Assembly (NCBI GenBank): GCA_903895055.1 | Contig: CAITSL010000041.1 | Span: forward strand, 1-37,721 | Source: an uncultured bacterium | GTDB taxonomy: Bacteria; Patescibacteriota; Minisyncoccia; Phycocordibacterales; UBA9973 | DNA: 37,721 nt | Reading direction: 5' to 3' | In this document: piece by piece, positions 11,707 through 37,262 of the stretch | Layout of the letters: every line of letters begins with the position of its first letter | Position numbering within the stretch: position 1 is the stretch's first letter | The notes under the pieces: generated by a model | What the model saw: the letters and a program-made list of their open reading frames with translations, nothing else | Told to the model about the DNA's origin: nothing | The model's database searches: none | Position numbers and translations under genes: made by a program

Positions 11707-11764
11707 AATTAATTTTATAATTTGCTAATAATTTTCGACTTATTTATAAATTTCTAATATTTTA

Positions 11765-11773: not shown

Positions 11774-11821
11774 CAAAACAACCAAATAAAAGCAAATAGA
11801 GTTATCCACAACCCCATTTTT

Positions 11822-13030: not shown

Positions 13031-13106
13031 CCCGATACTAAAATTTTAATTAATAATCTTTATCTTTATGCCCCGTAATCAAAAATTTAGTACGGGACAA
13101 GTAAAA

Positions 13107-14168: not shown

Positions 14169-14570
14169 TTAATTATTTTTAATTGAAATTTTGTCCGATA
14201 ATATTTTCAATACCTTCTCAATCACTTCCACCGGAGTGGAATTTACTTTAATGATATAGCCTGAAGCTCCAAGCTCTGTCCCTCGATCGATGTCTTCTTG
14301 TTGGCCTTTATTGGAAAGAATTATTTTAGCGGAATCAGGAGACAACTTTTCGGTATTGATTCTTTCGAACATCTCGAAACCATCCATGCCCGGCATAATG
14401 ATATCCATCAAAATAATGCTGGGATTCAATCCTTCTTTTAACTTTTTGATGGCCTCTGCCCCGCCGAGCGCAGTGTACACTTCAAAATTATTTTGGCTAA
14501 ACTTAAAAGCATACATATCCAAAAGAAAACCATCGTCGTCCACTATTAAAATTTTCTTTTTTTCTGCCAT
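14169..14570 (-). CDS. Single-domain response regulator (CheY-like receiver)
   Basis: 133 aa. Acidic pocket VDDD, phospho-acceptor LMDIIMPGMDG, conserved S (ILSN) and K (IIKV). Its stop codon directly abuts the pilT ATG. Confidence 0.85.
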   Translation of the reverse strand: MAEKKKILIVDDDGFLLDMYAFKFSQNNFEVYTALGGAEAIKKLKEGLNPSIILMDIIMPGMDGFEMFERINTEKLSPDSAKIILSNKGQQEDIDRGTELGASGYIIKVNSTPVEVIEKVLKILSDKISIKNN

Positions 14571-14585
14571 AAAATGATTATACCA

Positions 14586-16322: not shown

Positions 16323-16329
16323 AATTAAT

Positions 16330-16746
16330 TTAATGTGTTACGGGTGGAATTGTGGGTGGAATTGTGGGTGGAGTTGTGGGTGGAGTTGTGGGTGGAATTG
16401 TAATAGATGGCGTAATTTCAGTTCCAATCGGAGCAAAAGGATTGGGTCTGCCTTCAGTGCCATCTTGAATAAGAGTGATACTTGAATCTTGCAAAGAAAG
16501 AAAGGCCGGATCTTTAAAAATAGAGTCATCCAATTTAAGATTTTTGACACTCAAAAGGATTGAGACAAATTCATCGTTGGTATTTGGTGTTCCGTTTCCG
16601 GAAGTAGCATCTGGGGTAAGAGATGCTCCAGTTGAAGAAGTGAGTGACGCCGCTACCGGACCTTTTTTAATGAAAAAAATATAAATTAAGATCAAAACTA
16701 TCGCTACCACAACCAAGATTATTATGTTTTTTATTTTTGAATTCAT
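16330..16746 (-). CDS. Membrane-anchored protein with C-terminal Pro-Thr repeat (occupies the PilP position)
   Basis: 138 aa. N-terminal TM IIILVVVAIVLILIYIFFI and C-terminus TTPPTTPPTIPPTIPP. Sits between the pilO-like gene and pilB. Confidence 0.6.
   Translation of the reverse strand: MNSKIKNIIILVVVAIVLILIYIFFIKKGPVAASLTSSTGASLTPDATSGNGTPNTNDEFVSILLSVKNLKLDDSIFKDPAFLSLQDSSITLIQDGTEGRPNPFAPIGTEITPSITIPPTTPPTTPPTIPPTIPPVTH
16342..16401. repeat. Five tandem 12-bp units (GGGTGGAATTGT / GGGTGGAGTTGT)
   Basis: Direct reading gives units at 16342, 16354, 16366, 16378 and 16390. They encode the (T/I)PPT repeat on the minus strand. Confidence 0.9.
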
Positions 16747-16747
16747 A

Positions 16748-17359
16748 TTAATTTTTCAGCCAATAGGTTTTAATTTTAAAATCATATTTATACGAATCGG
16801 ATGGTTTGGATTTTCCAAGGACTACTGTTGTAACATCGGATGAAAAATTAACCGAAGAGATGTCTACTAATCGGAGGTTACTTTCTAGGTCTTTTACCAA
16901 AGAAATAAAATTGGAATAAGTTCCTTCGGTCGAAAATTCAAGATTCCAGGTTCCATATTCTTGATTGTTTAGAGCCGTCTTTTGATTTGTTGCCCCAGGG
17001 CTAGCTACTGTCCCGGCACCAACAGCGGCTTCTGTATCGGAAGAATCGTATTTGACATTTTCCAACACCATTCCGTAAGGTGAAGCTAATTTTTCAATTT
17101 CTAAAATGAGACGGATATTGTTCACACTGCCCGGCAAAAGTGTTTGTAATTTAGTTAAATTATTCGGATCAATGGCATTATATTTTTGCGTTAGTTTGTC
17201 GCGCTCCGCTTGAAGAGTATTGGCATTTCCCAATGCTTGATTATAGGAAGCGATTTGATTTTTGATATTCGAAATATCCCCCAAGATCGGATTGGTAAAC
17301 ATCATAAATAAAGTAACTCCGACTCCTATTAAAATTATGGGTGTAATATATCTAAACAT
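16748..17359 (-). CDS. PilO-like pilus alignment protein
   Basis: 203 aa with a single N-terminal TM followed by a coiled segment. Assigned from its position after the pilM and pilN-like genes; topology only. Confidence 0.5.
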   Translation of the reverse strand: MFRYITPIILIGVGVTLFMMFTNPILGDISNIKNQIASYNQALGNANTLQAERDKLTQKYNAIDPNNLTKLQTLLPGSVNNIRLILEIEKLASPYGMVLENVKYDSSDTEAAVGAGTVASPGATNQKTALNNQEYGTWNLEFSTEGTYSNFISLVKDLESNLRLVDISSVNFSSDVTTVVLGKSKPSDSYKYDFKIKTYWLKN

Positions 17360-17364
17360 AATAA

Positions 17365-17964
17365 TTAAGAAGCATTATCGCTTCTGGTTTTTAACGCCTC
17401 TTTGTAATTTACAAAATTTTTATCAACCGAAAACTCCAAATCAAAAAGTACATTCCCTTGATTATCTAGGGTAAGATTGGAAAAATTTGGGTCAATTAAA
17501 TTTTTATTCTTAGAGAATAAATCAGCCTGAAGCGCGATAGAGCGATATCCCACTGCCTGCCCGCTCATTTTTACCAATATGCCATTGTCCGATAAATCAT
17601 AGCTAAATTTGGTATAACGAATGGTTTTCAAGGTAAGAGCCTCTAGCGCTTCAAAAATCGGCGAAATGGCAATATGACTCGACAAAATTTCATTTGAGGA
17701 GTTTAGTCTTTTATCTAAAATTTGTAGTTTGCTGATCTCCGTAGGTTCAAAGCTATTCTTCGCTAAATTGAGATCCTTTTCCATTTTAGTCACATTCCCT
17801 GTCAAAACTCCTTTATAAAAATAGGCTCCCGCCGCACCTAAAACCATTGAGAAAAATACAATAATAGCAATAATCAAAAACAGACCAACCGAGCGTTTGC
17901 CCGGGGTTGTTTGTTCAACCATCGGCTTTTTGGGTATAAATGATGTTTGAAAATTTTGTTCCAT
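17365..17964 (-). CDS. PilN-like pilus alignment protein
   Basis: 199 aa. Short cytoplasmic N-terminus, one TM (LFLIIAIIVFFSMVLGAAGAYF), immediately downstream of pilM. Confidence 0.5.
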   Translation of the reverse strand: MEQNFQTSFIPKKPMVEQTTPGKRSVGLFLIIAIIVFFSMVLGAAGAYFYKGVLTGNVTKMEKDLNLAKNSFEPTEISKLQILDKRLNSSNEILSSHIAISPIFEALEALTLKTIRYTKFSYDLSDNGILVKMSGQAVGYRSIALQADLFSKNKNLIDPNFSNLTLDNQGNVLFDLEFSVDKNFVNYKEALKTRSDNAS

Positions 17965-17982
17965 TTCCTTTATTGTATTATC

Positions 17983-19110
17983 TCATTGTAATTTTCTCAA
18001 AGCAAGCCCCAGGGCAACCGAAAACTCAGGACCAGTCGCTTCTAACACTTTATCCAAGAATGCCGGCGCCCCAACTTTCGAGAAAGGATGTCCTACTTCT
18101 ACTTCGGCTTTAAAATTGTTTTCGGCCACTTCTTTCAAACCTTTTAGAAGGCATCCGCCGCCAGTCAGGATTACTTTGCTGATAGTCCGATTATATTTCT
18201 TCTCAAACCCTAATAATACATTATTTGTTTCGGAAAAGATATAGTCCGTGTGAATTTTTATGATGTCCGCTAAACTTTTTTCATTTGGATTGCCGTATAA
18301 GCCGTATTCTTTTTTCATTTTTTCCGCATCTCCAAATGAAATACCAAATGATTTTGAAATGGAATCGGTAATATCCGCCGCCCCACGACCGACAATGTGA
18401 AAAGACTTCACAGTGCCAAATTCAACAATCGATAATTTGGTACGTGAAGCCCCAAAATCCATTAAAAGCACCAAGGATAACTCATGTTCAAAATTTGAAC
18501 GAATGGACGAAAAAATTTCAATTTCAAAAAATGGAACATCCAATTTGCATTCATCGACAATTGATCGATATTTGGAAATAGCATCATTTTGAATTGCCAC
18601 TACCAATACTTCGGTCTTTTCTGCCTCTTTAGGAGAAGTTCCTTCACTGTTTGCTTCTAAAAAAGAAGTTTCTTTCTTCGGTAACAGTGACCAATCAAGA
18701 GAAACCTCATTGATGGGCACTGGAATATATTTTCTCGCTTCAGTGGTGATGATTGAAGGCATTTCACTTTCTTTTACATTCGGTGGCAATTCGATAGTAA
18801 AAATCAAACTTGATTGGACGGGGATAGCCAACGCTCCAGCGCTAGTGGTCGCACCAGATTGTTTCAATGTTTCATTCAGAGCTTCGATGGTTTTTTCAAC
18901 CGGAAGATTGGTCACCTTGCCAATATCAAGTTCGGCATAAGGGCCGAGTCCGATCATTCCATAAGTCGAGAGCATTGCCTTGCCTTCCTTTTTTTTGATT
19001 TCAACTATTTTAATCGAAGAAGAGCCAATGTCTATACCCAAGACACCGTTGCTCGCGTGGTTATTAAAAAAGCTAATACCTGAAAAAAGATTTTTAAAAG
19101 GATTATCCAT
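17983..19110 (-). CDS. pilM: Type IV pilus assembly protein PilM (actin-like ATPase fold)
   Basis: 375 aa. LGIDIGSSSIKIVEIKK phosphate-1 motif, MDFGASRTKLSIV, TGGGCLLKGL. Confidence 0.85.
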   Translation of the reverse strand: MDNPFKNLFSGISFFNNHASNGVLGIDIGSSSIKIVEIKKKEGKAMLSTYGMIGLGPYAELDIGKVTNLPVEKTIEALNETLKQSGATTSAGALAIPVQSSLIFTIELPPNVKESEMPSIITTEARKYIPVPINEVSLDWSLLPKKETSFLEANSEGTSPKEAEKTEVLVVAIQNDAISKYRSIVDECKLDVPFFEIEIFSSIRSNFEHELSLVLLMDFGASRTKLSIVEFGTVKSFHIVGRGAADITDSISKSFGISFGDAEKMKKEYGLYGNPNEKSLADIIKIHTDYIFSETNNVLLGFEKKYNRTISKVILTGGGCLLKGLKEVAENNFKAEVEVGHPFSKVGAPAFLDKVLEATGPEFSVALGLALRKLQ

Positions 19111-27609: not shown

Positions 27610-27623
27610 CTATATTTTATTTG

Positions 27624-27712
27624 CGGAGCCGGAGGGATTCGAACCCTCGAGGGGTTTTAAAGCCCCTGCATCTTTAGCAAAGATGTTACTTCGACCGCTC
27701 ATACACGGCTCC
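27624..27712 (-). tRNA. tRNA-Ser (anticodon GCU), class II
   Basis: Hand-folded 89 nt. Acceptor GGAGCCG/CGGCTCC, discriminator G, anticodon stem CATCT/AGATG with loop TTGCTAA. Variable arm AGGGG-CTTTAAAA-CCCCT, T arm GAGGG-TTCGAAT-CCCTC. Confidence 0.9.
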
Positions 27713-27805: not shown

Positions 27806-27892
27806 GGAGGCGTGGATGAGTGGTTTAAATCAGCGGTTTACTAAACCGCCGTTCCTTAATCGGAACCGTGAGTCCGAATCTCACCGCCTCCG
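27806..27892 (+). tRNA. Class II Ser-type tRNA with non-canonical anticodon ACU and T-loop TCCGAAT (functional variant or pseudogene)
   Basis: Hand-folded 87 nt. Acceptor GGAGGCG/CGCCTCC, discriminator G, D stem GAT/ATC, anticodon stem GCGGT/ACCGC with loop TTACTAA. Variable arm GTTCC-TTAATC-GGAAC, T arm GTGAG-TCCGAAT-CTCAC. Confidence 0.7.
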
Positions 27893-27932
27893 CAAAAAAA
27901 CAATTCGGGCTTGCGCTCGTTTTTGGTAGTAG

Positions 27933-28318: not shown

Positions 28319-30715
28319 ATGCAATTCAGTGACAAACTTGAAGCAAAATTTCGACTAGACGAGAATCAAAGGAGAGCTTTAAGGAAACTCGGCATTTTTT
28401 CGGTGGCGGATTTGCTCTATCATTTTCCTGTCAGATATTCGGATATCAGTGAAGTAAAACAAATTGCCAATATCATCCCTGGCGAGGTTGCGACAATTTA
28501 TGGAAAAGTTTCAAAATTAAAAACCAAAAAAGGATATCGTTCCAAAATTCCGATGGGCGACCCATTCGATAAAAAACTCAGGGTCGCCCCGAGCGCTTCG
28601 TCGAGGGGCGAAGGTGAGATATCGGATCTTTCCGGAAAAATAAAAATAGTCTGGTTTAATCAAGCCTATTTGGCAAAAATGCTCCATGAGGGAGAAAATG
28701 TAAAACTCACCGGAAAAATAACTCAGGGAAAACAGGGTTTGTATTTGGCCAATCCCGAATTTGAAAAAACCCCAAATATACCGATAGATTCACATGATAC
28801 TTTGTTTTTTAGCAAAGATGGTAAACAAGAAAATGCAGGGTTTTCTTATCCTATCTATCACGAAACTCGAGGTATCACTTCCAAGTGGTTTTATCATGCG
28901 ATTGAAAAAATTTTTAGAGACAAAACTTTGGAGAAGGTGGAAGATTACATCCCAAGTGATATTTTGGAAAAATACAATTTACCGACGCTGAAAACTGCCC
29001 TCATTTGGATTCATAAACCAAAAAATTCTCGGGATGCAGAAAGCGCGCGAAAGCGATTCGCTTTTGAGGAAGTTTTTTGCATTCAACTGGAACGCCAACA
29101 CGATAAAATCGAATACCGTAAAAATAAATCTTTTCAGATACAACCTGAATTTCCTAAAATTTTGAATCCCCGAGGGTCCCACTCCGAAGGAGAAGGGCGC
29201 AGGGGTGAAAAATTAGAGGAAATTCAGGTTGGTCCTGAAGTAAAAAGTTTTCTGGATCGTTTCCCGTTCGAACCAACCAATTCTCAGAAAAAATCTATTG
29301 AAACAATCTTGTCGGATATGGCGAGAAGTTTCCCAATGTCTCGCTTGCTCGAAGGTGATGTCGGCTCCGGCAAAACGGCTGTGGCCGCCACTGCCGCTTA
29401 TATTACAGTAATCCAAGAAAAGCCCCTCGATTCCACTCGGGGCAACCTGCAAATTTCAAAAAATTTGCAGGTTGCTTATATGGCCCCAACGGAAATTTTA
29501 GCTGCTCAACATTTCGAATCTTTCATCCAATATTTCAGACATTTGCCGATCAATATAGGGCTTATCACAGGCTCTGGTTGTAGGAAATTTCCTTCCAAGG
29601 TAAATCCTCTTGGCTGGACCGATATCTCGCGAGCGCAACTTTTAAAATGGACTCTGGGCGGGGAAATTTCTATTTTGATCGGCACTCATGCCTTGATTCA
29701 GAAAACGGTTAAATTTAAAAATCTGGCTTTGGTAGTGATAGACGAACAACACAGATTCGGCACTGCCCAGCGAAGAAAATTGGTCAGGAAAGACGGCATT
29801 GCTCCACATTTGCTTTCCATGACCGCCACTCCGATCCCCCGCACTTTGGCTCTCACTATTTATGGCGACTTGGATTTATCACTTCTCGATGAAATGCCCG
29901 CCGGGCGAAAACAAATCATCACCGAAATAATTACTCCGAACAAAAGGGATGAAACCTATGAAAAAGTCCGCGAAGAATTAAAAAAGGGCAGACAGCTTTA
30001 TGTCATCTGTCCGAGAATAGATGAACCAGATCCGGAAAAGCACCCCTACCCAACCTCCCCCTTAGCTAAGGGGGAGGAGCAAGGAGGGGGTGGATGGAAC
30101 GAGGTTAAAGCAGCAACTGCCGAAGCGAAGCGTTTGAAAAAAGAAATTTTCCGAGAATACGAAATCGGCGTGCTTCATTCAAAGATGTCTAAACAGAAAA
30201 AAGAAGAAGTAATGAAAAATTTTACCGAAGGGAAAATAAATATTTTGTGCGCGACATCTGTCGTAGAAGTTGGGGTCAATGTGCCAAATGCCACGGTGAT
30301 TATTATCGAAGGCGCAGAAAGGTTCGGCCTGGCGCAACTGCACCAACTTCGCGGACGGGTAATTCGAAGCAATGATCAAGCCTATTGCTATGTTTTTGCC
30401 TCCGACTCCGCCAAGGCTTCGCCGGACAAGGATGCTAAAAATAAAACTGTTCAACGACTTAAGGCTCTAATTACAGCCAAAAATGGTTTTGAATTGGCAG
30501 AACTGGACCTGACATTGCGTGGCGCCGGAGAACTTGGTGGTACGAAACAATGGGGCATCACCGACCTTGGGATGGAAGCAATCAAAAATCTGAAAATGGT
30601 CGAAGCTGCCCGGACCGAAGCGGTGCGCCTGATTTCCAAAGACCCCGAACTTTCCAAATATCCCCTTTTGAAACAAAAAGTTCACGAAAAAGCGGGAGAA
30701 TTTCATTTTGAGTAA
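28319..30715 (+). CDS. recG: ATP-dependent DNA helicase RecG, with four short GC-rich insertions
   Basis: 798 aa. Wedge-domain WFNQAYL, helicase motif I GDVGSGKT, MAPTEILAAQH, DEQHRFG, SMTATPIPRT, QLHQLRGRVIR. Confidence 0.92.
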   Translation: MQFSDKLEAKFRLDENQRRALRKLGIFSVADLLYHFPVRYSDISEVKQIANIIPGEVATIYGKVSKLKTKKGYRSKIPMGDPFDKKLRVAPSASSRGEGEISDLSGKIKIVWFNQAYLAKMLHEGENVKLTGKITQGKQGLYLANPEFEKTPNIPIDSHDTLFFSKDGKQENAGFSYPIYHETRGITSKWFYHAIEKIFRDKTLEKVEDYIPSDILEKYNLPTLKTALIWIHKPKNSRDAESARKRFAFEEVFCIQLERQHDKIEYRKNKSFQIQPEFPKILNPRGSHSEGEGRRGEKLEEIQVGPEVKSFLDRFPFEPTNSQKKSIETILSDMARSFPMSRLLEGDVGSGKTAVAATAAYITVIQEKPLDSTRGNLQISKNLQVAYMAPTEILAAQHFESFIQYFRHLPINIGLITGSGCRKFPSKVNPLGWTDISRAQLLKWTLGGEISILIGTHALIQKTVKFKNLALVVIDEQHRFGTAQRRKLVRKDGIAPHLLSMTATPIPRTLALTIYGDLDLSLLDEMPAGRKQIITEIITPNKRDETYEKVREELKKGRQLYVICPRIDEPDPEKHPYPTSPLAKGEEQGGGGWNEVKAATAEAKRLKKEIFREYEIGVLHSKMSKQKKEEVMKNFTEGKINILCATSVVEVGVNVPNATVIIIEGAERFGLAQLHQLRGRVIRSNDQAYCYVFASDSAKASPDKDAKNKTVQRLKALITAKNGFELAELDLTLRGAGELGGTKQWGITDLGMEAIKNLKMVEAARTEAVRLISKDPELSKYPLLKQKVHEKAGEFHFE
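28552..28616. repeat. GC-rich hairpin-forming island inside recG (insert 1)
   Basis: GGCGACCC (28556..28563) pairs with GGGTCGCC (28581..28588), and CGCCCC (28585..28590) with GGGGCG (28605..28610). Encodes DPFDKKLRVAPSASSRGEGE. Confidence 0.6.
29167..29206. repeat. GC-rich hairpin-forming island inside recG (insert 2)
   Basis: CCCCGAGGGTCCCACTCCGAAGGAGAAGGGCGCAGGGG, with an inner CTCC-GAA-GGAG hairpin and outer CCCC/GGGG. Encodes NPRGSHSEGEGRRGE. Confidence 0.55.
29422..29475. repeat. GC hairpin plus perfect 15-bp inverted repeat inside recG (insert 3)
   Basis: GCCCC...GGGGC (29422..29443), then GCAACCTGCAAATTT (29442..29456), loop CAAA, AAATTTGCAGGTTGC (29461..29475). Confidence 0.85.
30040..30097. 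repeat. GC-rich island with a perfect 24-nt palindrome inside recG (insert 4)
   Basis: CCTCCCCCTTAG|CTAAGGGGGAGG at 30054..30077, flanked by CACCCC / GGGGGTG. Encodes HPYPTSPLAKGEEQGGGGW. Confidence 0.85.
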
Positions 30716-30729
30716 AATTTCAGTTTAAT

Positions 30730-31980
30730 TTATTCATACCGCAAGGCGTCAATCGGATTCTTGCGGGCGGCTTGGCGGGCCGGATAGATGCCGAAAGCAA
30801 TACCGGTAATGCCCGAGACCGCGAGCCCCAGAATCACCGCCGAAATAGGAAAAGCAAAAACCCAACCTAGGGTAGTAAAGAAGGTAGAAAGCACCAAATA
30901 TACCAGACCGACAATGCCCGCGCCAATGGTGATGCCAATCACGCCCCCGGCAAAAGTCAGCAAAATTGATTCAATCAGAAATTGTTCCAAGATATCGTTA
31001 TTGGTTGCGCCCACCGCTTTGCGCAATCCGATTTCGCGCGTTCGTTCGGTCACTGCTACCAGCATAATGTTCATAATCCCGATTCCCCCGACAACCAGTG
31101 AGATAGAAGCAATGGCGGCTAAAAAGAGCGTCAAAACAGAAGTAACGGTACCAAGAACAGCCAAGATGTCGGCTTGCGTCAAAATATTAAAATCATCTTT
31201 ATTTGGATCTGTTATTCCATGATTTTGGCGCAAAGTAAATCTTATGCGCGATTCCACAAAACTTATATCATATTTTGGATTCCCTTCTACAAGAACAGTG
31301 CTAAAATAAGAAATTCCAAGCAATTGTTTTTGGGCAACTGAAATTGGTAAAACAATCACATTCCCCTGGTCAACGCCAAAGGCGCCAGTTCCGCCCTTGC
31401 TTAATACCCCCACCACTCGAAAAGAAATATTTTTTAATCGGATTATTTTATCAATAGGATCAAGCGCTGGTCCAAAAAGAGTTTTTGCCAAGTCGGGTCC
31501 AATAACCACTACATGATTAATGGAATCAACATCTTGTTTTGTAAAAGTCGCTCCTTTCCCGACCGTTAAGTTACGGATCGGAAACATATTGGCAGTTACT
31601 CCCTGATAACTAACTATTTTATTATTATTTCCATAGACAACTTCTGCTTGACCGCTAACCAAGGGCGCTGCCGCATCGACAGATGGTTCTCGTTCTAGAG
31701 CATCAATATCTCTTTGTCGTAAACTGGTAATAACTATTCCCTGCTCAGCAGCCGAAGGAGAAAACTTTCCGTTTGAGGGCGTGCCTGGAATAACAATAAT
31801 CAGATTGGAGCCTACACTTTGCACTTGACCCAAAATTAAATCCTGAGCCGATTGCCCGATGGACATAAGAATAATCACCGAAGCAATACCGATCACAATC
31901 CCAAGCATCGTTAAAATAGAACGCATTTTGCTGTGGTTGATACTATGAGTCGCTGTTTTGAAGGCATCTTTAAAAGTCAT
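30730..31980 (-). CDS. ABC transporter permease, MacB/FtsX family
   Basis: 416 aa. N-terminal TM, large extracytoplasmic (MacB_PCD-like) domain and a C-terminal FtsX-type 3-TM bundle. Confidence 0.85.
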   Translation of the reverse strand: MTFKDAFKTATHSINHSKMRSILTMLGIVIGIASVIILMSIGQSAQDLILGQVQSVGSNLIIVIPGTPSNGKFSPSAAEQGIVITSLRQRDIDALEREPSVDAAAPLVSGQAEVVYGNNNKIVSYQGVTANMFPIRNLTVGKGATFTKQDVDSINHVVVIGPDLAKTLFGPALDPIDKIIRLKNISFRVVGVLSKGGTGAFGVDQGNVIVLPISVAQKQLLGISYFSTVLVEGNPKYDISFVESRIRFTLRQNHGITDPNKDDFNILTQADILAVLGTVTSVLTLFLAAIASISLVVGGIGIMNIMLVAVTERTREIGLRKAVGATNNDILEQFLIESILLTFAGGVIGITIGAGIVGLVYLVLSTFFTTLGWVFAFPISAVILGLAVSGITGIAFGIYPARQAARKNPIDALRYE

Positions 31981-31982
31981 AA

Positions 31983-32690
31983 TTATTTCAAATTTCCTTC
32001 CATAAGATGGATCGGAGTAATGGACTGATCGCTTTCCACCCTGCCATCTTTTATTTTAATAATGCGATTGGCAAATTCGGCCGTTTGGGTTTCGTGAGTT
32101 ACTAAGATCACTGTGCGACCTTTCTGGTGTAATGATTCAAGTATTTTCATAACTTGCAAACCGGACTGTGAATCAAGATTGCCCGTCGGTTCATCGGCAA
32201 AAATAACATTCGGGCCGGTGACCAAAGCCCGAGCGATAGCCACTCGTTGTTTTTGGCCACCGGAAAGTCGGGCCGCTTCAGTATGGATTTTCTCTTCGAG
32301 ACCGACTGATTTCACCGCTTCTTCAACCAGACTTTTCCTTTTCGCTGAAGGAATATCGGAATACAAAAGCGGGATTTCCACGTTATCATAAACGGTCAGC
32401 TTAGAAAGTAAATTGAAAGATTGAAAGACAAAGCCCATATCTTTATTCCGAATCCGAGCCAATTCTTGATCAGTCAGATCATCGATACTTTTGTCATAAA
32501 ATTTATAGGATCCACCGGTGGGACGATCCAAAAAACTCAAGATATGGAGCAGGGTTGATTTACCGGAACCGGACGGTCCCATAATGGAAACAAATTCCCC
32601 TTCCTTAATCGAAAAAGTTATGCCCCGCAAGGCTTCGGTTGAAACGTCTTCTTCAAAATATTCTTTTTTTAGATCCTGTAATTCGATCAT
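31983..32690 (-). CDS. ABC transporter ATP-binding protein (MacB/LolD-type)
   Basis: 235 aa. Walker [10 protein letters not shown], signature LSGGQKQR, Walker [13 protein letters not shown]. Confidence 0.9.
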
Positions 32691-34123
32691 TGCGTTTTGA
32701 GTCCGATATTGAGAACCTGCTCCCCTTCGGTAACGCCAGAGACAACTTCTACATTCCCTTTTTGATCTGTGATGCCAAGAGTTACCGAATTTTGTTTGAC
32801 CTTATTATTTTCGAGCGTCTCCACAAAGGTGCCTTGATCATTTTGCAAGATAGCATACTGCGGAAGAATCAACACCCCGTCTTTATGTTTTGTCTCGATA
32901 GCAACATTGGCGGTAAGTCCACTTTTTAATCGCGCATCGATTTTATCAAATGAAATTTTGACCAAATAGGTTATCACCCCTTCCCTATTTGTTTCTGCCG
33001 GAGCAACATAAAATACCACTCCAGCGAATGTTTCGTTCGGAAAAGCATCCAGAGTCATCGTGGCCGTATCTCCGAGAACTATTTTCCCGATATCCGTTTC
33101 CGCCACTCCTGCGTCCACTTCATAGCCATCCTTCGACATAATAGAAACAAGAGACATATTTGGAGAGGCCAGCTGTCCCACTTTTGCGTCAAATTGAGTA
33201 ACCGTACCGCTGATTGGGGCAATAATTTGAGCATCTTTTATTTTAGCTGTTACACTATCAACACTTGCTTGCGCTTGCGCAATTTTAGCATCAGCGAGCA
33301 ATGAAGAATCCGCGGTCCCAGCATTTGCTTCTGCGTCGGCAATAGCTTTATCTTGAGTTTTAAGTGCCAGTTGGTAATTATTATTATTTAAGTTATAATT
33401 TATGGCATTTTTATTTGGGATCGTTATATTGAATTCTGCCCCGGCCTGAAGGGTTTTTGTTTTATCGAAAGACAAATAAATTCCACATTTACCGAGAGGT
33501 CTTGGAATATCCGTTAATAAAAAAGCTCCTCCTTCCAGCCCTGAATAAGATAATGAAATTCCACCGGTTGAATTATAAGTTTTTAAATTATAAGAACCTT
33601 CTTGGCTGCAAGTGTATGTTCCGGAAACTGTCGGAGCGTCATAGCCACTATTGTCGCCAACTGCTTCCGCGGAGAGAGAAGAATTTAAGAGAGTATTGTA
33701 AGCATTGGCTACCAGAGTGTTTTGTTCAGCAGTTACGTTTGCAAGATTATTTTTTGAAGTGGATGTATTTTGTTCAGCAATCGTGAGCCCTGCCTGCGCA
33801 TTGTGCAATTGCGCCACCAGATCGCTCATATTCTGTTCTGCTAATACTTGTCCCGCATGCACTTGTTTTCCAAGGCTCGAATAGGTATGGGAAACAATCC
33901 CGCTACTACCAAACGCCAGAGAAACACTTTGCTCGGGCGTGGTATTGCCGGTAACTGAAACCGTTTCAACAATCGAGCCTCGGGTAACTCCTATAAATTG
34001 ATAAGCAGTACCACTATGACGAATAAAAAGAAAATAGACCGCGCCCAAGACAAGCACTACAATAACCCCAATTACAATTTTTGATCGAATTAAATTTCGC
34101 AAAGTAAAAAAAATTGGACGCAT
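32687..34123 (-). CDS. HlyD/MacA-family membrane-fusion (periplasmic adaptor) protein
   Basis: 478 aa. N-terminal TM, lipoyl/beta-barrel-type segments and a long coiled-coil region. Overlaps the ABC ATPase start by 4 nt. Confidence 0.75.
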   Translation of the reverse strand: MRPIFFTLRNLIRSKIVIGVIVVLVLGAVYFLFIRHSGTAYQFIGVTRGSIVETVSVTGNTTPEQSVSLAFGSSGIVSHTYSSLGKQVHAGQVLAEQNMSDLVAQLHNAQAGLTIAEQNTSTSKNNLANVTAEQNTLVANAYNTLLNSSLSAEAVGDNSGYDAPTVSGTYTCSQEGSYNLKTYNSTGGISLSYSGLEGGAFLLTDIPRPLGKCGIYLSFDKTKTLQAGAEFNITIPNKNAINYNLNNNNYQLALKTQDKAIADAEANAGTADSSLLADAKIAQAQASVDSVTAKIKDAQIIAPISGTVTQFDAKVGQLASPNMSLVSIMSKDGYEVDAGVAETDIGKIVLGDTATMTLDAFPNETFAGVVFYVAPAETNREGVITYLVKISFDKIDARLKSGLTANVAIETKHKDGVLILPQYAILQNDQGTFVETLENNKVKQNSVTLGITDQKGNVEVVSGVTEGEQVLNIGLKTQ

Positions 34124-34128
34124 GCCCC

Positions 34129-34137
34129 ATTATCTCA
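34129..34137 (-). promoter_or_regulatory. Extended -10 promoter (TGaGATAAT), 5 nt before ATG 34123
   Basis: Minus strand reads TGA GATAAT GGGGC ATG. Confidence 0.45.
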
Positions 34138-34149
34138 CAAAAAAGACCA

Positions 34150-34194
34150 AAATCAAAGGTTTATGGAAAAGCCGGGGAATTTCATTTTGAATAA
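34150..34194 (+). pseudogene. Displaced relic of the last 14 codons plus stop of recG
   Basis: AAA TCA AAG GTT TAT GGA AAA GCC GGG GAA TTT CAT TTT GAA TAA (KSKVYGKAGEFHFE*). recG 30671..30715 reads AAA CAA AAA GTT CAC GAA AAA GCG GGA GAA TTT CAT TTT GAG TAA (KQKVHEKAGEFHFE*). Identity is 36/45 nt, and the last 27 nt differ only at three synonymous positions. Confidence 0.7.
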
Positions 34195-34195: not shown

Positions 34196-34732
34196 TTATT
34201 TAATTAATTCCTCAAAAATTTGATTTGTAGTTTCTTCAAGCGTTTGATTACTTGAATCTATTATTTGCCAGTTTAATTCATCTTTTCGTAGCATATACTT
34301 CTCGTGTAACTCTTGAGTTCTTTTGCGAAGCTCTTCATTTATTCCTCTTTTATCAAAACGTTTAAATAAAGCTTCAAGTGTAGGTAAAAGTAAAAATACT
34401 TTTATTTTTCTATCGTGAAAGAAATCCTGAAATTGTTTTAATTGTGTTCTTCCGACAATACAATCAATAATCACATTATAGCCCGATTCAAGAAAATTAT
34501 TTGCCAAGGTACAGGCATTTTGTGCCCTAAGAAATAATTGCTTTTTAACTTCTTCATTCCATGGATATGGTTTGACACGACCCCCAATTATCATTTTGTG
34601 AAGATCATCGGCATTAATCACTGCACTCTTTTCGAATTTTAGAGCCAATGCTTTTGCAACAGAAGACTTGCCAGCTCCCGATGGACCTGTGATTAAACAA
34701 ACTACAAGATTTTTATTATTAATTTTACTCAT
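34196..34732 (-). CDS. P-loop NTPase/kinase-like protein
   Basis: 178 aa. Walker A ITGPSGAGKSSVAKAL. Small nucleotide/antibiotic-kinase-like size; specific family not recognised. Confidence 0.6.
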   Translation of the reverse strand: MSKINNKNLVVCLITGPSGAGKSSVAKALALKFEKSAVINADDLHKMIIGGRVKPYPWNEEVKKQLFLRAQNACTLANNFLESGYNVIIDCIVGRTQLKQFQDFFHDRKIKVFLLLPTLEALFKRFDKRGINEELRKRTQELHEKYMLRKDELNWQIIDSSNQTLEETTNQIFEELIK

Positions 34733-34746
34733 TAAATATTAAAGTG

Positions 34747-34820
34747 TCCGCCCTCTACGATTCGAACGTAGGACCCTCGAGGTATAAGCTCGATGCTCTA
34801 ACCAACTGAGCTAAGGGCGG
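34747..34820 (-). tRNA. tRNA-Ile with anticodon UAU
   Basis: Hand-folded 74 nt. Acceptor CCGCCCT/AGGGCGG, discriminator A, D arm GCTC-AGTTGGTTA-GAGC, anticodon stem TCGAG/CTCGA with loop CTTATAC, T arm CTACG-TTCGAAT-CGTAG. Confidence 0.8.
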
Positions 34821-34849: not shown

Positions 34850-36763
34850 TTAAACAACTTTCTCGATTTCAAGCTTTTTCGGCACTATCCCATGTGCAAT
34901 GATTATTTTCTCATATTCTTCTTGTTCCAGCGTTTCAACTTCTATCAGCTTCTGCGCGATCGCATCCAAGGCTTTTTTGTGTTCCGTCAAAACTTTTTCG
35001 GCTGATTTGATGCCATCATTCATAATTCTGGAAACTTCGGCATCTACTTTAGTCGAAACAGTTTCTGAATATTCTTTTTCAATTTCAGCAAAACCAGGAT
35101 GTCCTCCATTGTCTACCAAAGCTACCGGCCCGATTAAATCGGACATCCCCCACCTGGTTACCATCGCGCGTGCTAAATTGGTGGCAACTTGCAAATCACT
35201 CGACGGTCCGGTAGTAATATCACCGAAAATCATTTTTTCCGCCACGTATCCGCCAAGCGACATAGCAATATCGTCGATAAATTCTTTTTTCGACTGCAAA
35301 CGTCTTTCCTCCAACGGCAATTTCAAAGTATATCCACCAGCATTGCCTCGGGCAATAATAGAAACTTTGTGCACCGGATCGGCATTCGGCAAAACAGAAG
35401 CCACCAACGCATGCCCGGCTTCATGGTAAGCGGTGATCTCTTTTTCTTTTTTGGAAAGCAAATGGCTTTTGCGTTCCGGTCCAAGCATCACTTTTTCAAT
35501 CGCGCGAATCAAGTCGAACTGAAAAACTTTTTTGCGGTTCTCTCGGGCCGCCAAGATCGCACCTTCGTTCATCAGAGAATACAAGTCCGCGCCGGAAAAT
35601 CCAGGAGTGCGTTCCGCAACCAGTTTCAGATTGATATCTTCCGCCAATGGTTTTTTCAAAGCATGAATTTTCAAAATCTCTTCTCGGTCGGCTCGATCCG
35701 GTAAATCCAGAATTACTTTTCGATCAAAACGTCCCGGGCGAATCAGAGCCGGGTCAAGCACGTCAGGTCTATTGGTCGCTGCCATTACGATCACTTTGTC
35801 ATTCGGTTCAAAACCATCCATTTCAACCAGAATCTGATTTAAGGTTTGTTCACGTTCATCGTTACCTCCCCCAAAACCTCCTCCGCGGGTCCGGCCGATC
35901 GCGTCTATCTCATCAATAAAAATAATAGCTGGAGCGGATTTTTTGGCCATTTTAAATAAATCTCGCACGCGTGAGGCTCCAACCCCGACAAACATTTCCA
36001 CAAACTCAGACCCCGAAAGATGAAAAAAAGGCACGCCGGCTTCCCCGGCCACCGCTCTTGCGAGCAAAGTTTTGCCTGTCCCCGGCGCACCGGTTAAAAT
36101 CACCCCTTTCGGAATGCGAGCACCAATATCCAAAAACTTTTTGGGACTTTTCAGAAAATCCACAATTTCTTTTAATTCTTCTTTCGCCTCGCGACATCCA
36201 GCCACATCTTTGAAAGTCACTTTATTATTTTTGTCATTCGGGTCGGTAATCCTGGCTTTCGATTGTCCAAAAGTAAACGCTTGCATCCCAGCGCCTTTCA
36301 CTTGCCGAGACAAATACCAAAAGAAAATTATGATGAACAAAATCGGCAGAGCGAAAGGCAAAATATTTGCCATCCAATAACCAAAACTATTAGGATCTTT
36401 GATAGTGATCACCGTCTTCCCTAAGGCATCGGGCTTTACTCCATAATTGAATAAGGTTTGAGAAAGAGAAGATTCTGTTTCTTTTTTAGAACTTTTAATA
36501 TCGCCGTTAGTGTAAGAGATGGTAAGATCCTCTCCTTCCACCATAATATTTTTCACCGTTCCGTCCGAGACATTTTGGGCCAAATCGGAAATTGAAATTT
36601 GAGGGACAGTTTTTTGATTGGTTCCAGAAACTGCCAAATAGACAGCCGTAATCAACATAAAAATCAAAAGAGCGCCCAGAATACTGCCGGAAAATTTACT
36701 TTCCTTTTTGCCCTTTTTGCCTTTGTTTTGCGGATCTTTTTTGTTTAAAAAGTTGAAATCCAT
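34850..36763 (-). CDS. ftsH: ATP-dependent zinc metalloprotease FtsH
   Basis: Two N-terminal TM helices, AAA+ Walker [15 protein letters not shown] region, HEAGHA zinc motif. Start set at ATG 36763 (MDFNFLNKK) because TGcTATATT lies 6 nt upstream; the track ORF extends to 36808. Confidence 0.93.
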
Positions 36764-36769
36764 TTTGTA

Positions 36770-36778
36770 AATATAGCA
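36770..36778 (-). promoter_or_regulatory. Extended -10 promoter (TGcTATATT), 6 nt before ftsH ATG 36763
   Basis: Minus strand reads TGC TATATT TACAAA ATG. Confidence 0.55.
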
Positions 36779-36822
36779 TAAAAAAGATGAAAGGTTAATG
36801 ACTAACATGGTATACTTAATTT

Positions 36823-36999
36823 ATGAAAAAAATATGGAAAATCCTTTTGGGATTTTTAATTCTTTTAGTTGTTGTAACTTTTGTCTTTATATATCATTTA
36901 GCAAATACTGGCTGTTGGGGTTTTAGGGATTGTTGGGCAATAAATCCCAACGCGTCCAGCGGTCCATGTGTTCCATCACCAGAAACCCCTAATTGCTAA
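36823..36999 (+). CDS. Possible small membrane-anchored Cys-rich peptide (58 aa)
   Basis: Hand translation: MKKIWKILLGFLILLVVVTFVFIYHLANTGCWGFRDCWAINPNASSGPCVPSPETPNC. Signal-anchor-like N-terminus and 4 Cys. No clear SD or -10 box, and below the ORF-track cutoff. Confidence 0.3.
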   Translation: MKKIWKILLGFLILLVVVTFVFIYHLANTGCWGFRDCWAINPNASSGPCVPSPETPNC

Positions 37000-37262
37000 A
37001 CTTTTGTTGAAATACTTTTATTATATAAATCTATCAATTTTTCTTTTTTCTCCCTTCGCCATTTTTTGATTTGAATTTCTCTTTTTCTGGCTTCGACCAA
37101 ACTATCCTGTTCTTCTAGAAACACAATTTCAAACTTGTCTCGAATTTTAGTAAAATCAGAACCTCTTTTGGAATTATGTTCAGAAAGGCGACGTTCTGGA
37201 TTGTCTGTAACCCCTATATATAAATTATCATATGAATTTTTAATCATATACACAAAATACAT
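36996..37262 (-). CDS. GIY-YIG nuclease superfamily protein (short UPF0213/YhbQ-like type)
   Basis: 88 aa. YFVYMIKNSYDNLYIGVTDNPERRLSEHN matches the GIY-(x10)-YIG motif followed by R..H/N. Confidence 0.8.
   Translation of the reverse strand: MYFVYMIKNSYDNLYIGVTDNPERRLSEHNSKRGSDFTKIRDKFEIVFLEEQDSLVEARKREIQIKKWRREKKEKLIDLYNKSISTKV

What the first reader, a model, noticed from the sequence alone, without database searches (positions are those of the whole stretch)
30671..34194. MacAB-like efflux cassette bracketed by the recG 3' end and a displaced copy of the same 15 codons: insertion scar
recG ends ...KQKVHEKAGEFHFE* at 30671..30715. A second copy, KSKVYGKAGEFHFE*, lies 3.4 kb downstream on the same strand at 34150..34194. 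The copies share 36/45 nt, and the final 27 nt differ only by three synonymous changes. Copy 2 ends 1 nt before the convergent stop of the P-loop kinase gene. Between the copies sit exactly three minus-strand genes (permease, ATPase, adaptor) with their own promoter, and parts of them are visibly more GC-rich than the surroundings. The simplest reading is that recG was originally convergent with the kinase gene. A 3.43-kb cassette then entered at the recG 3' end, bringing or regenerating a replacement terminus. Integrative islands behave this way at tRNA or gene 3' ends, yet no integrase is present here.
Basis: seen in the sequence. Interest (0 to 1): 0.7.

Follow-up and report, generated by a model that had tools for sequence, protein, structure and literature searches.

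The report
Orphan recG tail marks operon insertion
A 45-base leftover copy of the end of the DNA-repair gene recG shows that a three-gene exporter operon was spliced in at the end of that gene in an uncultivated (CPR) bacterium; similar scars recur at this spot in related genomes, which points to imprecise homologous recombination rather than a dedicated mobile element.

Summary
recG ends at 30671-30715, and a second copy of the same 15 codons plus stop lies at 34150-34194 (36/45 nt; unique in the window; 0 of 100 shuffles). All 120 RecG homologues end in HFE (119 in FHFE), so copy 2 is a genuine recG fragment. It carries two residues never seen in functional tails, so it is decaying. Relative L082 has recG, 1 nt, then the kinase stop, which is exactly the copy-2/kinase junction. 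No relative has the exporter operon there. The insertion-scar reading is therefore supported.

Three secondary claims are not supported: distinctive composition, an own promoter, and island-like behaviour. The conserved backbone is recG facing tRNA-Ile(UAU), then ftsH, with a hypervariable gap of 25 nt to 7.9 kb. Orphan recG tails recur in at least 13 distinct loci, with different cargo or none. Where inspected (nine loci), every duplication ends at the recG stop, and the 5' edges range from -23 to -235. About 50 cargo families and the whole window contain no integrase or transposase.

The best explanation is recombination anchored in recG with an illegitimate distal joint (HFIR, "terminal displacement"). 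This part is inferred, not shown. It is a clear scar of a known kind, in a newly described CPR hotspot.

The parts
28319..30715 (+). recG (798 aa), intact; wedge, DEAD/Helicase_C and RecG_dom3_C domains
   Evidence: Pfam; 120 homologues at 71-81% identity
30671..30715 (+). Functional recG terminus (copy 1), KQKVHEKAGEFHFE*. Inferred to have arrived with the cassette, or to have been recombined in.
   Evidence: The tail motif is conserved in all 120 homologues.
30730..31980 (-). MacB/YknZ-type ABC permease (MacB_PCD + FtsX); its stop lies 14 nt from the recG stop
   Evidence: Pfam; 85-86% identical homologues in Paceibacteria
31983..32690 (-). ABC transporter ATPase (235 aa)
   Evidence: Pfam ABC_tran, 4.4e-34
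32687..34123 (-). HlyD/YknX-type periplasmic adaptor (478 aa), first gene of the operon
   Evidence: Pfam HlyD_D23 and HlyD_3; precomputed YknX barrel families on identical or related proteins
34124..34149 (-). 26-nt spacer between the adaptor ATG and the orphan tail. It contains an extended -10-like box, TGTGAGATAAT. This is the distal edge of the inserted block.
   Evidence: Homology to operon copies in L164 and L166 does not extend beyond the ORFs.
34150..34194 (+). Orphan recG terminus (copy 2), KSKVYGKAGEFHFE*. This is the displaced ancestral 3' end, still in its original position against the kinase stop. It is non-coding and decaying.
   Evidence: (nhmmer E = 2e-7 against the recG-tail profile). 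The junction is the same as in L082.
34196..34732 (-). P-loop kinase-like gene (AAA_33 / Zeta_toxin-like), GC3 0.21. It is an older cargo gene, wedged between the tRNA-Ile 3' end (13 nt away) and the orphan tail (1 nt away).
   Evidence: Pfam; the only orthologue found among the fetched loci is in L082; composition
34746..34820 (-). tRNA-Ile(UAU), a conserved backbone partner of recG and ftsH. In minimal loci its 3' end lies 3-15 nt from the recG stop.
   Evidence: Rfam; ARAGORN; present in the interval in 98 of 105 loci
34850..36808 (-). ftsH, the conserved far border of the variable interval
   Evidence: Pfam; tblastn in 105 loci at 76-92% identity

Best explanation
The 45 nt at 34150-34194 are the original end of recG. 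They were left where they always were, 1 nt from the stop codon of the convergent kinase gene, when a compact three-gene MacAB/YknXYZ-type exporter operon (3.43 kb) was inserted. The incoming DNA carried a recG 3' end of its own, joined to the operon.

Most likely, the left side recombined homologously inside recG, whose last ~240 nt are well conserved right up to the stop codon. The right, non-homologous side was joined illegitimately 45 nt upstream of the resident recG stop. This is homology-facilitated illegitimate recombination (HFIR), the process proposed for 'C-terminal displacement' in rhs and T6SS loci. recG stayed intact, the kinase gene kept its 3' end, and the old recG tail became a non-coding relic that now accumulates substitutions.

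The site is a hotspot. The gap between recG and tRNA-Ile/ftsH turns over in this whole clade, and the same scar has formed repeatedly.

Shown: the duplication, its recG origin, the ancestral cassette-free layout, recurrence in other lineages, and the absence of recombinase genes. Inferred: the recombination mechanism, a donor in which the operon already lay next to recG, and uptake of the DNA (the window encodes a type IV pilus cluster).
For: 1. Copy 2 is a recG tail. A profile of recG tails hits it at E = 2e-7, and the C-terminal motif is conserved in all 120 homologues.
2. The ancestral state exists: L082 has recG-TAA, one A, then the kinase stop, with the same flanking bases. Close relatives P0009/L162, P0002 and P0006 lack the cassette.
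3. The backbone recG>, <tRNA-Ile, <ftsH has a gap of 25-7872 nt, 189 cargo clusters, and 85% of cargo on the minus strand.
4. Orphan recG tails occur downstream of an intact recG, on the same strand, at the far edge of unrelated cargo: L023 (PanA-type HTH antitoxin and partner, 235 nt), L090 (123 nt), L123 (54 nt), L131 (RelE/RHH-like pair, 23 nt), L050 and L076. In L084, L150, L149, L123, L021 and L009 an orphan directly follows the functional tail with no cargo. These loci are not a clade.
5. In all nine loci inspected at nucleotide level, the duplication ends at the recG stop, which is the end of homology, while the 5' edges range from -23 to -235. This is what a homologous anchor plus a random illegitimate joint predicts.
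6. In L023 and L090 the two copies are identical except in the last 16-24 nt next to the cargo. This suggests that the terminus adjoining the cargo has a different origin.
7. A mirror-image scar exists on the ftsH side: a complete but different tRNA-Ile plus a 41-49-nt fragment of the canonical one, in L036 and L027, with different breakpoints.
8. No integrase or transposase was found in the window or in about 50 cargo-cluster representatives.
9. Tail duplication is recG-specific: 4 of the 8 hits among 1133 ORF tails are recG, at least one of the other four is the palindromic repeat, and there are no orphan ftsH tails.
10. The recG 3' end is conserved right to the stop (0.87 mean pairwise identity in the last 15 nt), whereas the ftsH end is not (0.47).
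11. recG shows mosaic ancestry among lineages.
12. The orphan has residues never seen in functional tails.
13. Precedent for the mechanism: PMC5361080 and PMC2935791.
Against: - No donor with the exporter operon adjacent to recG was found among about 135 lineages. In relatives the operon lies in other contexts.
- The illegitimate joint cannot be examined for microhomology without a donor sequence.
- No breakpoint in the window's recG can be tied to the event, because relatives share at most 85% nt identity.
- HFIR as studied experimentally usually deletes recipient DNA rather than duplicating it (my own knowledge). Here duplication has to be explained by selection for keeping the abutting neighbour gene intact.
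- The last 18 nt of the two copies are nearly identical (17/18) while the upstream 27 nt differ at 8 positions. This would also fit a short conserved recombination core (p about 0.07 for clustering by chance; my calculation).
- The PanAT module has the same edge in two contexts, L123 and L041. That hints at discrete cassettes rather than random breakpoints.
Confidence: 0.55

Rival explanations
1. RecA-mediated Campbell-type integration of a circular cassette. A circle carrying a recG 3' fragment plus cargo arises by recombination between the two tails in a previous host. It integrates by a single homologous crossover in the resident recG tail and recreates tail-cargo-tail. This is the two-stage model proposed for rhs tips.
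For: It gives the same architecture: a fixed 3' edge at the recG stop and an element-specific 5' edge. It needs no recombinase gene. The PanAT module has the same edge in two contexts. Precedent: PMC2935791.
Against: - A first illegitimate event is still needed to create the repeat.
- With a foreign recG fragment, differences are expected on both sides of the crossover. L023 and L090 differ only at the cargo-proximal 16-24 nt.
- Tandem orphan tails without any cargo are hard to obtain from a cargo circle.
- With only 45 nt of homology, this route would be inefficient for the window's cassette.
Confidence: 0.15
2. Site-specific integration at an att site that overlaps the recG terminus and the abutting tRNA-Ile 3' end, by an integrase acting in trans or since lost. 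This would resemble tRNA- or gene-3'-end-targeting genomic islands, tycheposon-like elements or integron cassettes.
For: The scars are recG-specific and all contain the last 15-18 nt. The site abuts a tRNA 3' end in the minimal state. Cargo is compact, co-oriented and nearly promoter-less, as in integron cassettes. The last 18 nt of the window's two copies match 17/18.
Against: - No integrase, transposase or resolvase was found in the 37.7-kb window or in about 50 cargo families.
- Repeat length varies from 23 to 235 nt.
- Most cargo-bearing loci have no repeat at all.
- No tRNA-3' remnants accompany the recG-side scars.
- Terminus displacement also occurs without cargo.
- The tRNA-side scars have different breakpoints and involve a whole foreign tRNA gene.
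Confidence: 0.12
3. In-situ target duplication. The operon was captured at a staggered break or replication-template switch inside the recG tail, producing a 45-nt target-site duplication that has since diverged.
For: Direct repeats flank the insert. No donor with recG-operon linkage is known.
Against: - In the nine loci inspected, the duplications end exactly at the recG stop rather than at arbitrary positions.
- In L023 and L090 the copies are identical except for clustered differences at the terminus (L023: 3 differences, all in the last 24 of 234 nt; L090: 6 differences, all in the last 17 of 123 nt). Drift after a duplication does not produce this.
- The tandem orphans in L084, L150, L021 and L009 encode a different tail variant from the functional copy.
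- 20% divergence within 45 nt would imply great age, yet the junction is otherwise sharp.
Confidence: 0.05
4. Chance similarity or chimeric assembly.
For: None beyond the short length of the repeat.
Against: 0 of 100 shuffles give a second match. The copy is in frame with a stop and matches a clade-wide motif. Both junctions were re-assembled in independent samples. The junction is orthologous to the one in L082.
Confidence: 0.01

Closest known systems
C-terminal (3'-terminal) displacement in rhs, CDI and T6SS effector loci, proposed to occur through HFIR or a circular intermediate (Jackson et al. 2009, PMC2935791; Kirchberger et al. 2017, PMC5361080)
   Same: Incoming DNA carries the end of a conserved gene plus new downstream genes. 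It recombines through the conserved part and pushes the old 3' end downstream, where it remains as an orphan fragment that retains a piece of the conserved sequence. The process is recurrent, produces arrays, and involves no integrase.
   Different: In those loci the displaced tip is the variable toxin domain and is itself the point of the exchange. Here the gene is a housekeeping helicase, the regenerated tip encodes the same conserved peptide, the cargo is unrelated (an exporter, toxin-antitoxin-like pairs, or nothing), and the orphan is a 23-235-nt non-coding relic.
Homology-facilitated illegitimate recombination during natural transformation (de Vries & Wackernagel 2002; Prudhomme et al. 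2002; Meier & Wackernagel 2003; cited in PMC5361080)
   Same: One-sided homologous anchor (recG), an illegitimate distal joint at variable positions, no element-encoded enzyme, and rare events.
   Different: It has not been observed experimentally in these organisms. The joint lies upstream of the end of the anchor, which gives a duplication instead of the more usual deletion. The donor and any microhomology are unknown.
Genomic islands integrated by tyrosine integrases at tRNA, tmRNA or protein-gene 3' ends (attL/attR direct repeats that regenerate the gene end)
   Same: The gene end is regenerated next to the insert, the displaced copy lies at the far border, and the location abuts a tRNA 3' end.
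   Different: No integrase is present, the repeat length is variable, the composition is not anomalous, no tRNA-derived att repeat is found, the inserts are tiny (0-3.4 kb), and scars also occur without cargo.
Integration hotspots between conserved core genes (chromosomal hotspots of gene flux; named from my own knowledge, because the literature search timed out)
   Same: A single interval between core genes (recG and tRNA-Ile/ftsH) concentrates gene gain and loss across a clade, mostly without recognisable mobile-element genes.
   Different: Here the hotspot is resolved to the nucleotide at the recG stop, and it preserves physical scars of individual events.
MacAB / YknXYZ-type tripartite ABC exporters (the cargo)
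   Same: A permease with a MacB periplasmic core domain plus FtsX, a separate ABC ATPase, and a HlyD/YknX-type adaptor, in one overlapping operon.
   Different: The ATPase is not fused to the permease as it is in E. coli MacB. No outer-membrane partner is expected in this type of bacterium. The substrate is unknown.

Membership tests
Integrase-driven island at a gene or tRNA 3' end | Integrase or recombinase gene inside or adjacent to the insert | tested here: not met
   Pfam on all window genes and about 50 cargo-cluster representatives found none.
Integrase-driven island at a gene or tRNA 3' end | Direct repeats (attL/attR) flanking the insert, with one of them regenerating the target gene end | tested here: met
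   30671-30715 versus 34150-34194, 36/45 nt.
Integrase-driven island at a gene or tRNA 3' end | A fixed att core or crossover position shared by independent insertions | tested here: not met
   The 5' edges of the orphans range from -23 to -235. Only the end of the gene is shared.
Integrase-driven island at a gene or tRNA 3' end | tRNA-3' remnant at the island border when the tRNA is the target | tested here: not met
   A tRNA-Ile profile finds fragments only in L036 and L027, next to the tRNA itself and not at the recG-side scars.
Integrase-driven island at a gene or tRNA 3' end | Atypical composition of the insert | tested here: not met
   GC and GC3 match recG and ftsH. Tetranucleotide distance z is about 2.3; 6 of 138 windows are as deviant.
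Terminal displacement / HFIR-type insertion | A regenerated gene end adjoining the new DNA, with the original end displaced downstream in its old context | tested here: met
   The copy-2/kinase junction is identical in layout to the recG/kinase junction of L082.
Terminal displacement / HFIR-type insertion | The duplication is bounded on one side by the end of homology and on the other by a variable illegitimate joint | tested here: met
   In nine loci inspected at nucleotide level, the 3' edge lies at the recG stop and the 5' edges vary. Mirror-image tRNA scars show different breakpoints.
Terminal displacement / HFIR-type insertion | A donor in which the anchor gene and the cargo are contiguous | tested here: not met
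   No locus other than the same strain has the operon next to recG. The operon is found in three other contexts. Sampling is limited, so this is absence of evidence.
Terminal displacement / HFIR-type insertion | Microhomology at the illegitimate joint | not testable with these tools
   This needs the donor sequence. The comparison of L123 with L041 shows at most 1 nt.
Terminal displacement / HFIR-type insertion | Capacity for DNA uptake and homologous recombination | tested here: inconclusive
   The window encodes a type IV pilus cluster (PilM, two T2SSE, T2SSF, prepilin peptidase, pilins) and LigA. A relative's contig carries recA. ComEC was not examined. recG is mosaic among lineages.
Transposon / IS insertion | Transposase, terminal inverted repeats and a short fixed-length target duplication | tested here: not met
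   There is no transposase, no inverted repeats at the cassette ends, and the repeat is 45 nt and diverged.
MacB-type (MacAB/YknXYZ) ABC exporter | A permease with the MacB periplasmic core domain plus an FtsX C-terminal domain | tested here: met
   PF12704 at 1.5e-42 and PF02687 at 4e-19.
MacB-type (MacAB/YknXYZ) ABC exporter | A cognate ABC ATPase and a HlyD-family adaptor in the same operon | tested here: met
   PF00005 at 4.4e-34 and PF16576/PF13437. Gene order and sizes are conserved in L164 and L166.
MacB-type (MacAB/YknXYZ) ABC exporter | Export activity and substrate | not testable with these tools
   No experimental data are available.

The most novel reading that the evidence does not exclude
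The recG terminus of this CPR clade may be a dedicated landing pad: an attI-like site formed by the last ~18 nt of recG, abutting the tRNA-Ile 3' end. Compact, co-oriented, promoter-poor gene cassettes would be inserted there one after another by a trans-acting recombination system that has not been identified. That system might be connected with the dispersed 41-nt palindromic elements or with the small GIY-YIG or LAGLIDADG nucleases nearby. Each insertion would push older cassettes and their recG-tail 'att' remnants towards ftsH. This would amount to an integron-like gene-capture system without an integron integrase.
Probability: 0.1. Interest if true: 0.8.

Novelty: new member of a known kind. 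Interest (0 to 1): 0.45.

Why it matters
For this window, the result settles what the 45-nt repeat is and dates the gene order. First, recG abutted tRNA-Ile. Then a kinase-like gene was wedged in. Then the exporter operon was added.

More broadly, CPR/Patescibacteria are uncultivated, and how their small genomes acquire genes is known almost only from inference. Here a single interval (recG / tRNA-Ile / ftsH) preserves nucleotide-level scars of many independent gain events. Those scars look like the footprint of imprecise recombination anchored on flanking genes, not of integrases or transposons.

If confirmed, this would be direct genomic evidence that uptake plus RecA-type recombination, including its sloppy one-sided form, drives gene flux in these organisms. 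It would also extend 'terminal displacement', so far described for polymorphic-toxin loci, to an ordinary housekeeping gene. The scars provide a practical marker for ordering insertion events in metagenome-assembled genomes.

Tried and rejected
- Composition as evidence of foreign origin: GC, GC3 and tetranucleotide tests show that the cassette resembles the neighbouring core genes. Rejected as support.
- Mosaic analysis of the window's recG, by sliding nearest neighbour and three-sequence maximum chi-square. Recombination among lineages is detectable, but no breakpoint can be linked to the cassette, because the closest DNA available is at most 85% identical.
- 'Hitch-hiking terminus' test, asking whether the last 18 nt of recG co-vary with the adjacent cargo cluster. 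Synonymous sites are saturated, so the test is uninformative.
- Search for orphan ftsH tails and for tail duplications of any other long ORF. None was found apart from other repeated sequence.
- Search for an empty-site sibling strain through exact-protein look-ups of the kinase and the adaptor. Only the filled arrangement is on record.
- Contexts of the closest MacB homologues. Three different neighbourhoods were found, none next to recG, and nucleotide homology ends at the ORF limits, so the block edges could not be refined or a donor identified.
- Microhomology at the left and right junctions. Nothing informative.
- tRNA-att hypothesis. The tRNA-Ile is part of the backbone, but no tRNA remnants flank the recG-side scars.
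- Relation between the window's LAGLIDADG gene and the HTH protein (cluster 6) common beside ftsH. None.
- Plasmid and phage similarity for the cassette. Only generic ABC-transporter motifs.
- An approximate-regex scan for the palindromic element timed out and was replaced by nhmmer.
- One literature search was rejected for a malformed term and three timed out. The statement about hotspots between core genes therefore rests on my own knowledge.
- My first reading of the hairpin loci, as 15-18-nt 'mini-tails' created by the element, was wrong. They are ~24-33-nt orphan tails split by the element.

Full report
OBSERVATION

The window's recG (28319-30715, + strand, 798 aa) ends with AAACAAAAAGTTCACGAAAAAGCGGGAGAATTTCATTTTGAGTAA (30671-30715, KQKVHEKAGEFHFE*). 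A second copy, AAATCAAAGGTTTATGGAAAAGCCGGGGAATTTCATTTTGAATAA (KSKVYGKAGEFHFE*), lies at 34150-34194 on the same strand. The copies share 36/45 nt, and the last 27 nt differ by three synonymous changes. No other 45-mer in the window reaches 30/45 on either strand. The 27-mer with up to 3 mismatches occurs only at these two places, and 100 dinucleotide shuffles gave no match. Similarity stops abruptly upstream of 34150.

Between the copies are three overlapping minus-strand genes:
- a MacB_PCD+FtsX permease (30730-31980);
- an ABC ATPase (31983-32690);
- a HlyD/YknX-type adaptor (32687-34123).

Copy 2 ends 1 nt before the stop codon of a P-loop kinase-like gene (34196-34732). Contigs from other samples reproduce both junctions exactly: the left one, and the right one in L168 and L169 (100% and 99.9% identity). 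The structure is therefore real.

COPY 2 IS A RELIC OF recG

The organism is a CPR bacterium of the Paceibacteria/Nomurabacteria type, judging by the names attached to homologues. All 120 closest RecG proteins end in HFE, 119 of them in FHFE, and 63 in KAGEFHFE. A nucleotide profile of recG tails from 160 related loci finds copy 2 at E = 2e-7. Two of the orphan's three amino-acid differences, Y at -10 and G at -9, occur in none of the 120 homologues or the 78 distinct tails in the loci. This is expected for a fragment released from selection.

ANCESTRAL STATE

I fetched 160 loci encoding RecG relatives and mapped the window's proteins onto them.
- The exporter operon is next to recG only in the window and in L001, which is the same strain.
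- L082 (RecG 79% identical) has recG ...TTTCATTTTGAGTAA, then A, then the stop of a kinase gene that is 64% identical to the window's (TTATTTA...). The copy-2/kinase junction has exactly this layout.
- In both genomes the kinase start lies 4-13 nt from the 3' end of a tRNA-Ile(UAU) gene.
- Contigs with even closer RecGs also lack the operon. P0009/L162 has 156 nt between recG and ftsH. P0002 and P0006 have other genes there.

- Composition. The cassette genes have GC 0.418-0.436 and GC3 0.34-0.40, like recG (0.431 and 0.411) and ftsH (0.430 and 0.421). The tetranucleotide distance is only mildly high (z about 2.3; 6 of 138 windows of the same size are as deviant). The real low-GC outliers are the kinase (GC3 0.21) and a small GIY-YIG gene.
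- Origin. The window's MacB has many homologues at 76-86% identity in the same phylum, which is closer than RecG's best at 81%. The same operon, with adaptor of 473-480 aa, ATPase of 234-235 aa and permease of 416 aa, occurs in three other neighbourhoods in relatives. Nucleotide homology (about 75%) stops at the ORF limits. There is no relation to known plasmids or phages.
- Promoter. The only promoter-like site upstream of the adaptor gene is a 9/12 match. Its -35 (TTGATT) lies inside the orphan tail, and its extended -10 (TGTGAGATAAT) ends 5 nt before the ATG. It would be a junction hybrid at best. Read-through from ftsH, tRNA-Ile and the kinase is equally plausible.

THE WIDER PICTURE: A HOTSPOT WITH RECURRENT SCARS

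Across the clade the backbone is recG(+), then tRNA-Ile(-), then ftsH(-). The tRNA lies in the interval in 98 of 105 loci. In the minimal state the interval is 108-147 nt, and the tRNA's 3' end is only 3-15 nt from the recG stop. Otherwise the gap reaches 7.9 kb and holds 189 different ORF clusters, 85% of them on the minus strand.

Annotated cargo includes:
- Panacea-domain (PanA-type) HTH antitoxins with an unannotated partner gene;
- weak, sub-threshold YafQ/RelE-like and RHH matches;
- a PIF1-like helicase;
- class II and class III ribonucleotide reductases;
- a DNA methylase and an AbiEii-like ATPase;
- transporters, SAM synthetase and others.

Orphan recG tails occur downstream of an intact recG, on the same strand, at the far edge of the recG-proximal cargo:

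| Locus | Orphan length | nhmmer E | Cargo |
|---|---|---|---|
| L023 | 235 nt | 5e-67 | PanA-type HTH antitoxin + partner |
| L090 | 123 nt | 9e-29 | one 280-aa gene |
| L123/L124 | 54 nt | 2.5e-5 | PIF1 + PanA-type pair |
| L131 | 23 nt | 5e-4 | RelE/RHH-like pair |
| L050 | not measured | 0.01 | MazG-like |
| L076 | not measured | 0.02 | three unannotated genes |
| L160, L008 | not measured | above 0.5 | weaker candidates |

L023 and L050 carry different cargo. In both, the orphan is followed by the same polysaccharide-lyase gene, so these are independent hits at one junction.

In L084, L150, L149, L123, L021 and L009 an orphan tail of roughly 24-33 nt follows the functional stop directly, with no cargo between (43 nt intervene in L021). 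In four of these (L084, L150, L021, L009) the orphan encodes a different tail variant from the functional copy: KAG against KVS, KTK or KVA. All are interrupted by small palindromic elements. These loci are no more related to each other than random pairs are. Counting duplicates once, at least 13 of about 134 distinct loci carry such scars.

Two controls show the effect is specific to recG:
- No orphan ftsH tails exist in 105 loci.
- Among 1133 distinct long-ORF tails, four of the eight with a downstream near-copy (at least 25/30) are recG. At least one of the other four is the palindromic element. The remaining three were not examined further.

MECHANISM

Three features discriminate between models.

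1. In all nine loci inspected at nucleotide level, the duplication ends at the recG stop codon. That is where homology between any two genomes ends, because the neighbours differ. The 5' edge varies from -23 to -235. A homologous anchor plus a random illegitimate joint predicts exactly this. A fixed att core or a staggered-cut target duplication does not.
2. In the two long, recent duplications the copies are identical except next to the cargo. L023 has 3 differences, all in the last 24 of 234 nt. L090 has 6 differences in the last 17 of 123 nt: the third base of each of the five last sense codons and of the stop codon. The terminus adjoining the cargo therefore has a different origin from the rest. 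In L090 the orphan resembles the nearest relatives more than the functional tail does (0.87 against 0.84).
3. No integrase, transposase or resolvase was found in the window or in about 50 cargo-cluster representatives. No tRNA-3' remnant accompanies the recG-side scars.

A mirror-image scar exists on the ftsH side. In L036 and L027 a complete but different tRNA-Ile(UAU) gene sits next to ftsH. About 44 nt beyond it lies a 49-nt or 41-nt 3' fragment of the canonical tRNA-Ile, with the breakpoint at a different position in each locus.

Two further observations fit the anchor model. The recG 3' end is conserved up to its last base (mean pairwise identity 0.87 in the last 15 nt, 0.83-0.87 at -106 to -165), unlike the ftsH end (0.47 and 0.35). 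recG also shows mosaic ancestry among lineages.

The model that fits best is homology-facilitated illegitimate recombination. Donor DNA of the form 'recG 3' part + cargo' recombines homologously within recG, and its other end is joined illegitimately. When that joint falls inside the resident recG tail, the tail is duplicated. Such products are the ones that keep the tightly abutting convergent neighbour intact. The same process has been proposed for orphan 3' regions in rhs loci and for T6SS effector-immunity arrays (PMC5361080). Jackson et al. proposed a related version that acts through circular intermediates (PMC2935791).

The window encodes a type IV pilus cluster and LigA. This is compatible with DNA uptake but does not prove it.

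WHAT REMAINS OPEN

- No donor with the exporter operon next to recG was found.
- The illegitimate joint cannot be inspected without a donor sequence.
- The near-identity of the last 18 nt of the window's copies (17/18, against 19/27 upstream) and the identical edge of the PanAT module in two contexts leave some room for a short recombination core, or for discrete cassettes handled by an unknown trans-acting system.

I rate the insertion-scar reading at about 0.9. For the mechanisms, I rate HFIR at about 0.55, the circular RecA-only variant at 0.15, site-specific integration at 0.12 and in-situ target duplication at 0.05.

VERDICT

The finding is real and correctly interpreted in its essentials. 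In kind it is ordinary: a displaced gene end marks an insertion. It adds a well-resolved example in a CPR genome. With the comparative data it also reveals a recG / tRNA-Ile / ftsH hotspot with recurrent terminus-displacement scars, which is of moderate interest for how these reduced genomes acquire genes.

Noticed in passing
Relatives: L084 2380-2444, L150 4517-4581, L123 12213-12275 and 15191-15254, L021 8156-8219, L149 5011-5075 (inverted). Inside recG: L028 10364-10408, L044 1349-1389, L052 5821-5882. At or inside the ftsH 3' end: L015, L029, L138, L140.: A dispersed GC-rich palindromic repeat of about 41 nt (ACCTGCCCGCAATGCTTTCAGCATAGCTGATGCAGGCGGGG). As DNA it folds at -12.4 kcal/mol (z = -3.4). 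It occurs in both orientations, in intergenic regions at gene ends, and apparently in frame inside coding genes (recG, and the ftsH C-terminus). This recalls the Rickettsia palindromic elements. nhmmer did not detect it in the window. A second hairpin (ACCCCGTAGTAAGC...GCTTTACTACTGGGG) splits the orphan tails in L009 and L021.
   Followed up: partly
L036 12526-12574 and L027 3382-3422: A complete tRNA-Ile(UAU) with a different acceptor stem (GGGCG...) sits next to ftsH. About 44 nt downstream lies the 3' 41-49 nt of the canonical tRNA-Ile. A whole tRNA gene has been replaced and a fragment of the old one left behind.
   Followed up: partly
window 34196-34732 and 34746-34820: The kinase-like gene (AAA_33 / Zeta_toxin-like; GC 0.315, GC3 0.21) fits almost exactly between the tRNA-Ile 3' end (13 nt away) and the old recG stop (1 nt away). 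This leaves no room for a promoter or terminator. Among the fetched loci it is shared only with L082, so it is probably an earlier insertion at the same spot.
   Followed up: partly
window 36996-37262; also L022, L035, L045, L063, L084, L110, L130, L144 and the contigs of P0002 and P0006: A small stand-alone GIY-YIG gene (88 aa, GC 0.285) occupies different positions around ftsH in different genomes. In P0002 and P0006 it lies between recG and ftsH; in the window and others it lies beyond ftsH. It looks mobile. I did not test whether it plays any role in creating breaks at the hotspot.
   Followed up: no
window 28319-30715, especially 29133-29239: The window's RecG is the longest of the 120 homologues (798 aa against 718-790), owing to several lineage-specific inserts. 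One insert region contains a 38-nt inverted repeat (arms 29133-29170 and 29202-29239, 79% complementary) inside the coding sequence. This may be another in-frame palindromic insertion.
   Followed up: no
window 2569-2656 and 2634-3311: A free-standing low-GC (GC3 0.24) LAGLIDADG-like gene (225 aa) whose 3' end overlaps the predicted tRNA-Ser(GGA) gene. It is unrelated to the HTH_23 protein (cluster 6) that often lies beside ftsH in relatives.
   Followed up: partly
window 27623-27712 (-) and 27806-27893 (+); also L082 9312-9562: A divergent pair of tRNA-Ser genes lies just upstream of the response-regulator and recG pair. ARAGORN gives one of them the unusual anticodon ACU. The pair is also present in L082.
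   Followed up: no
L123 13967-15136 versus L041 19464-20635: A PanA-type (HTH + Panacea) antitoxin module with its partner gene ends at the same nucleotide (...TTGACATyTTAATT|) in two contexts. In L123 it abuts an orphan recG tail. In L041 it lies 8 kb from recG with no tail. This suggests that modules are moved as compact, discrete blocks.
   Followed up: partly
window 8043-19110: A large type IV pilus cluster: PilM, two T2SSE ATPases, a T2SSF platform protein, a prepilin peptidase and several pilins, with an embedded response regulator. It is syntenic in relatives (L162) and is potentially the DNA-uptake machinery.
   Followed up: no
window 16337-16401: A 12-nt tandem repeat (GGTGGAATTGTG-like, 4-5 copies) near the end of the 16330-16746 ORF.
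   Followed up: no
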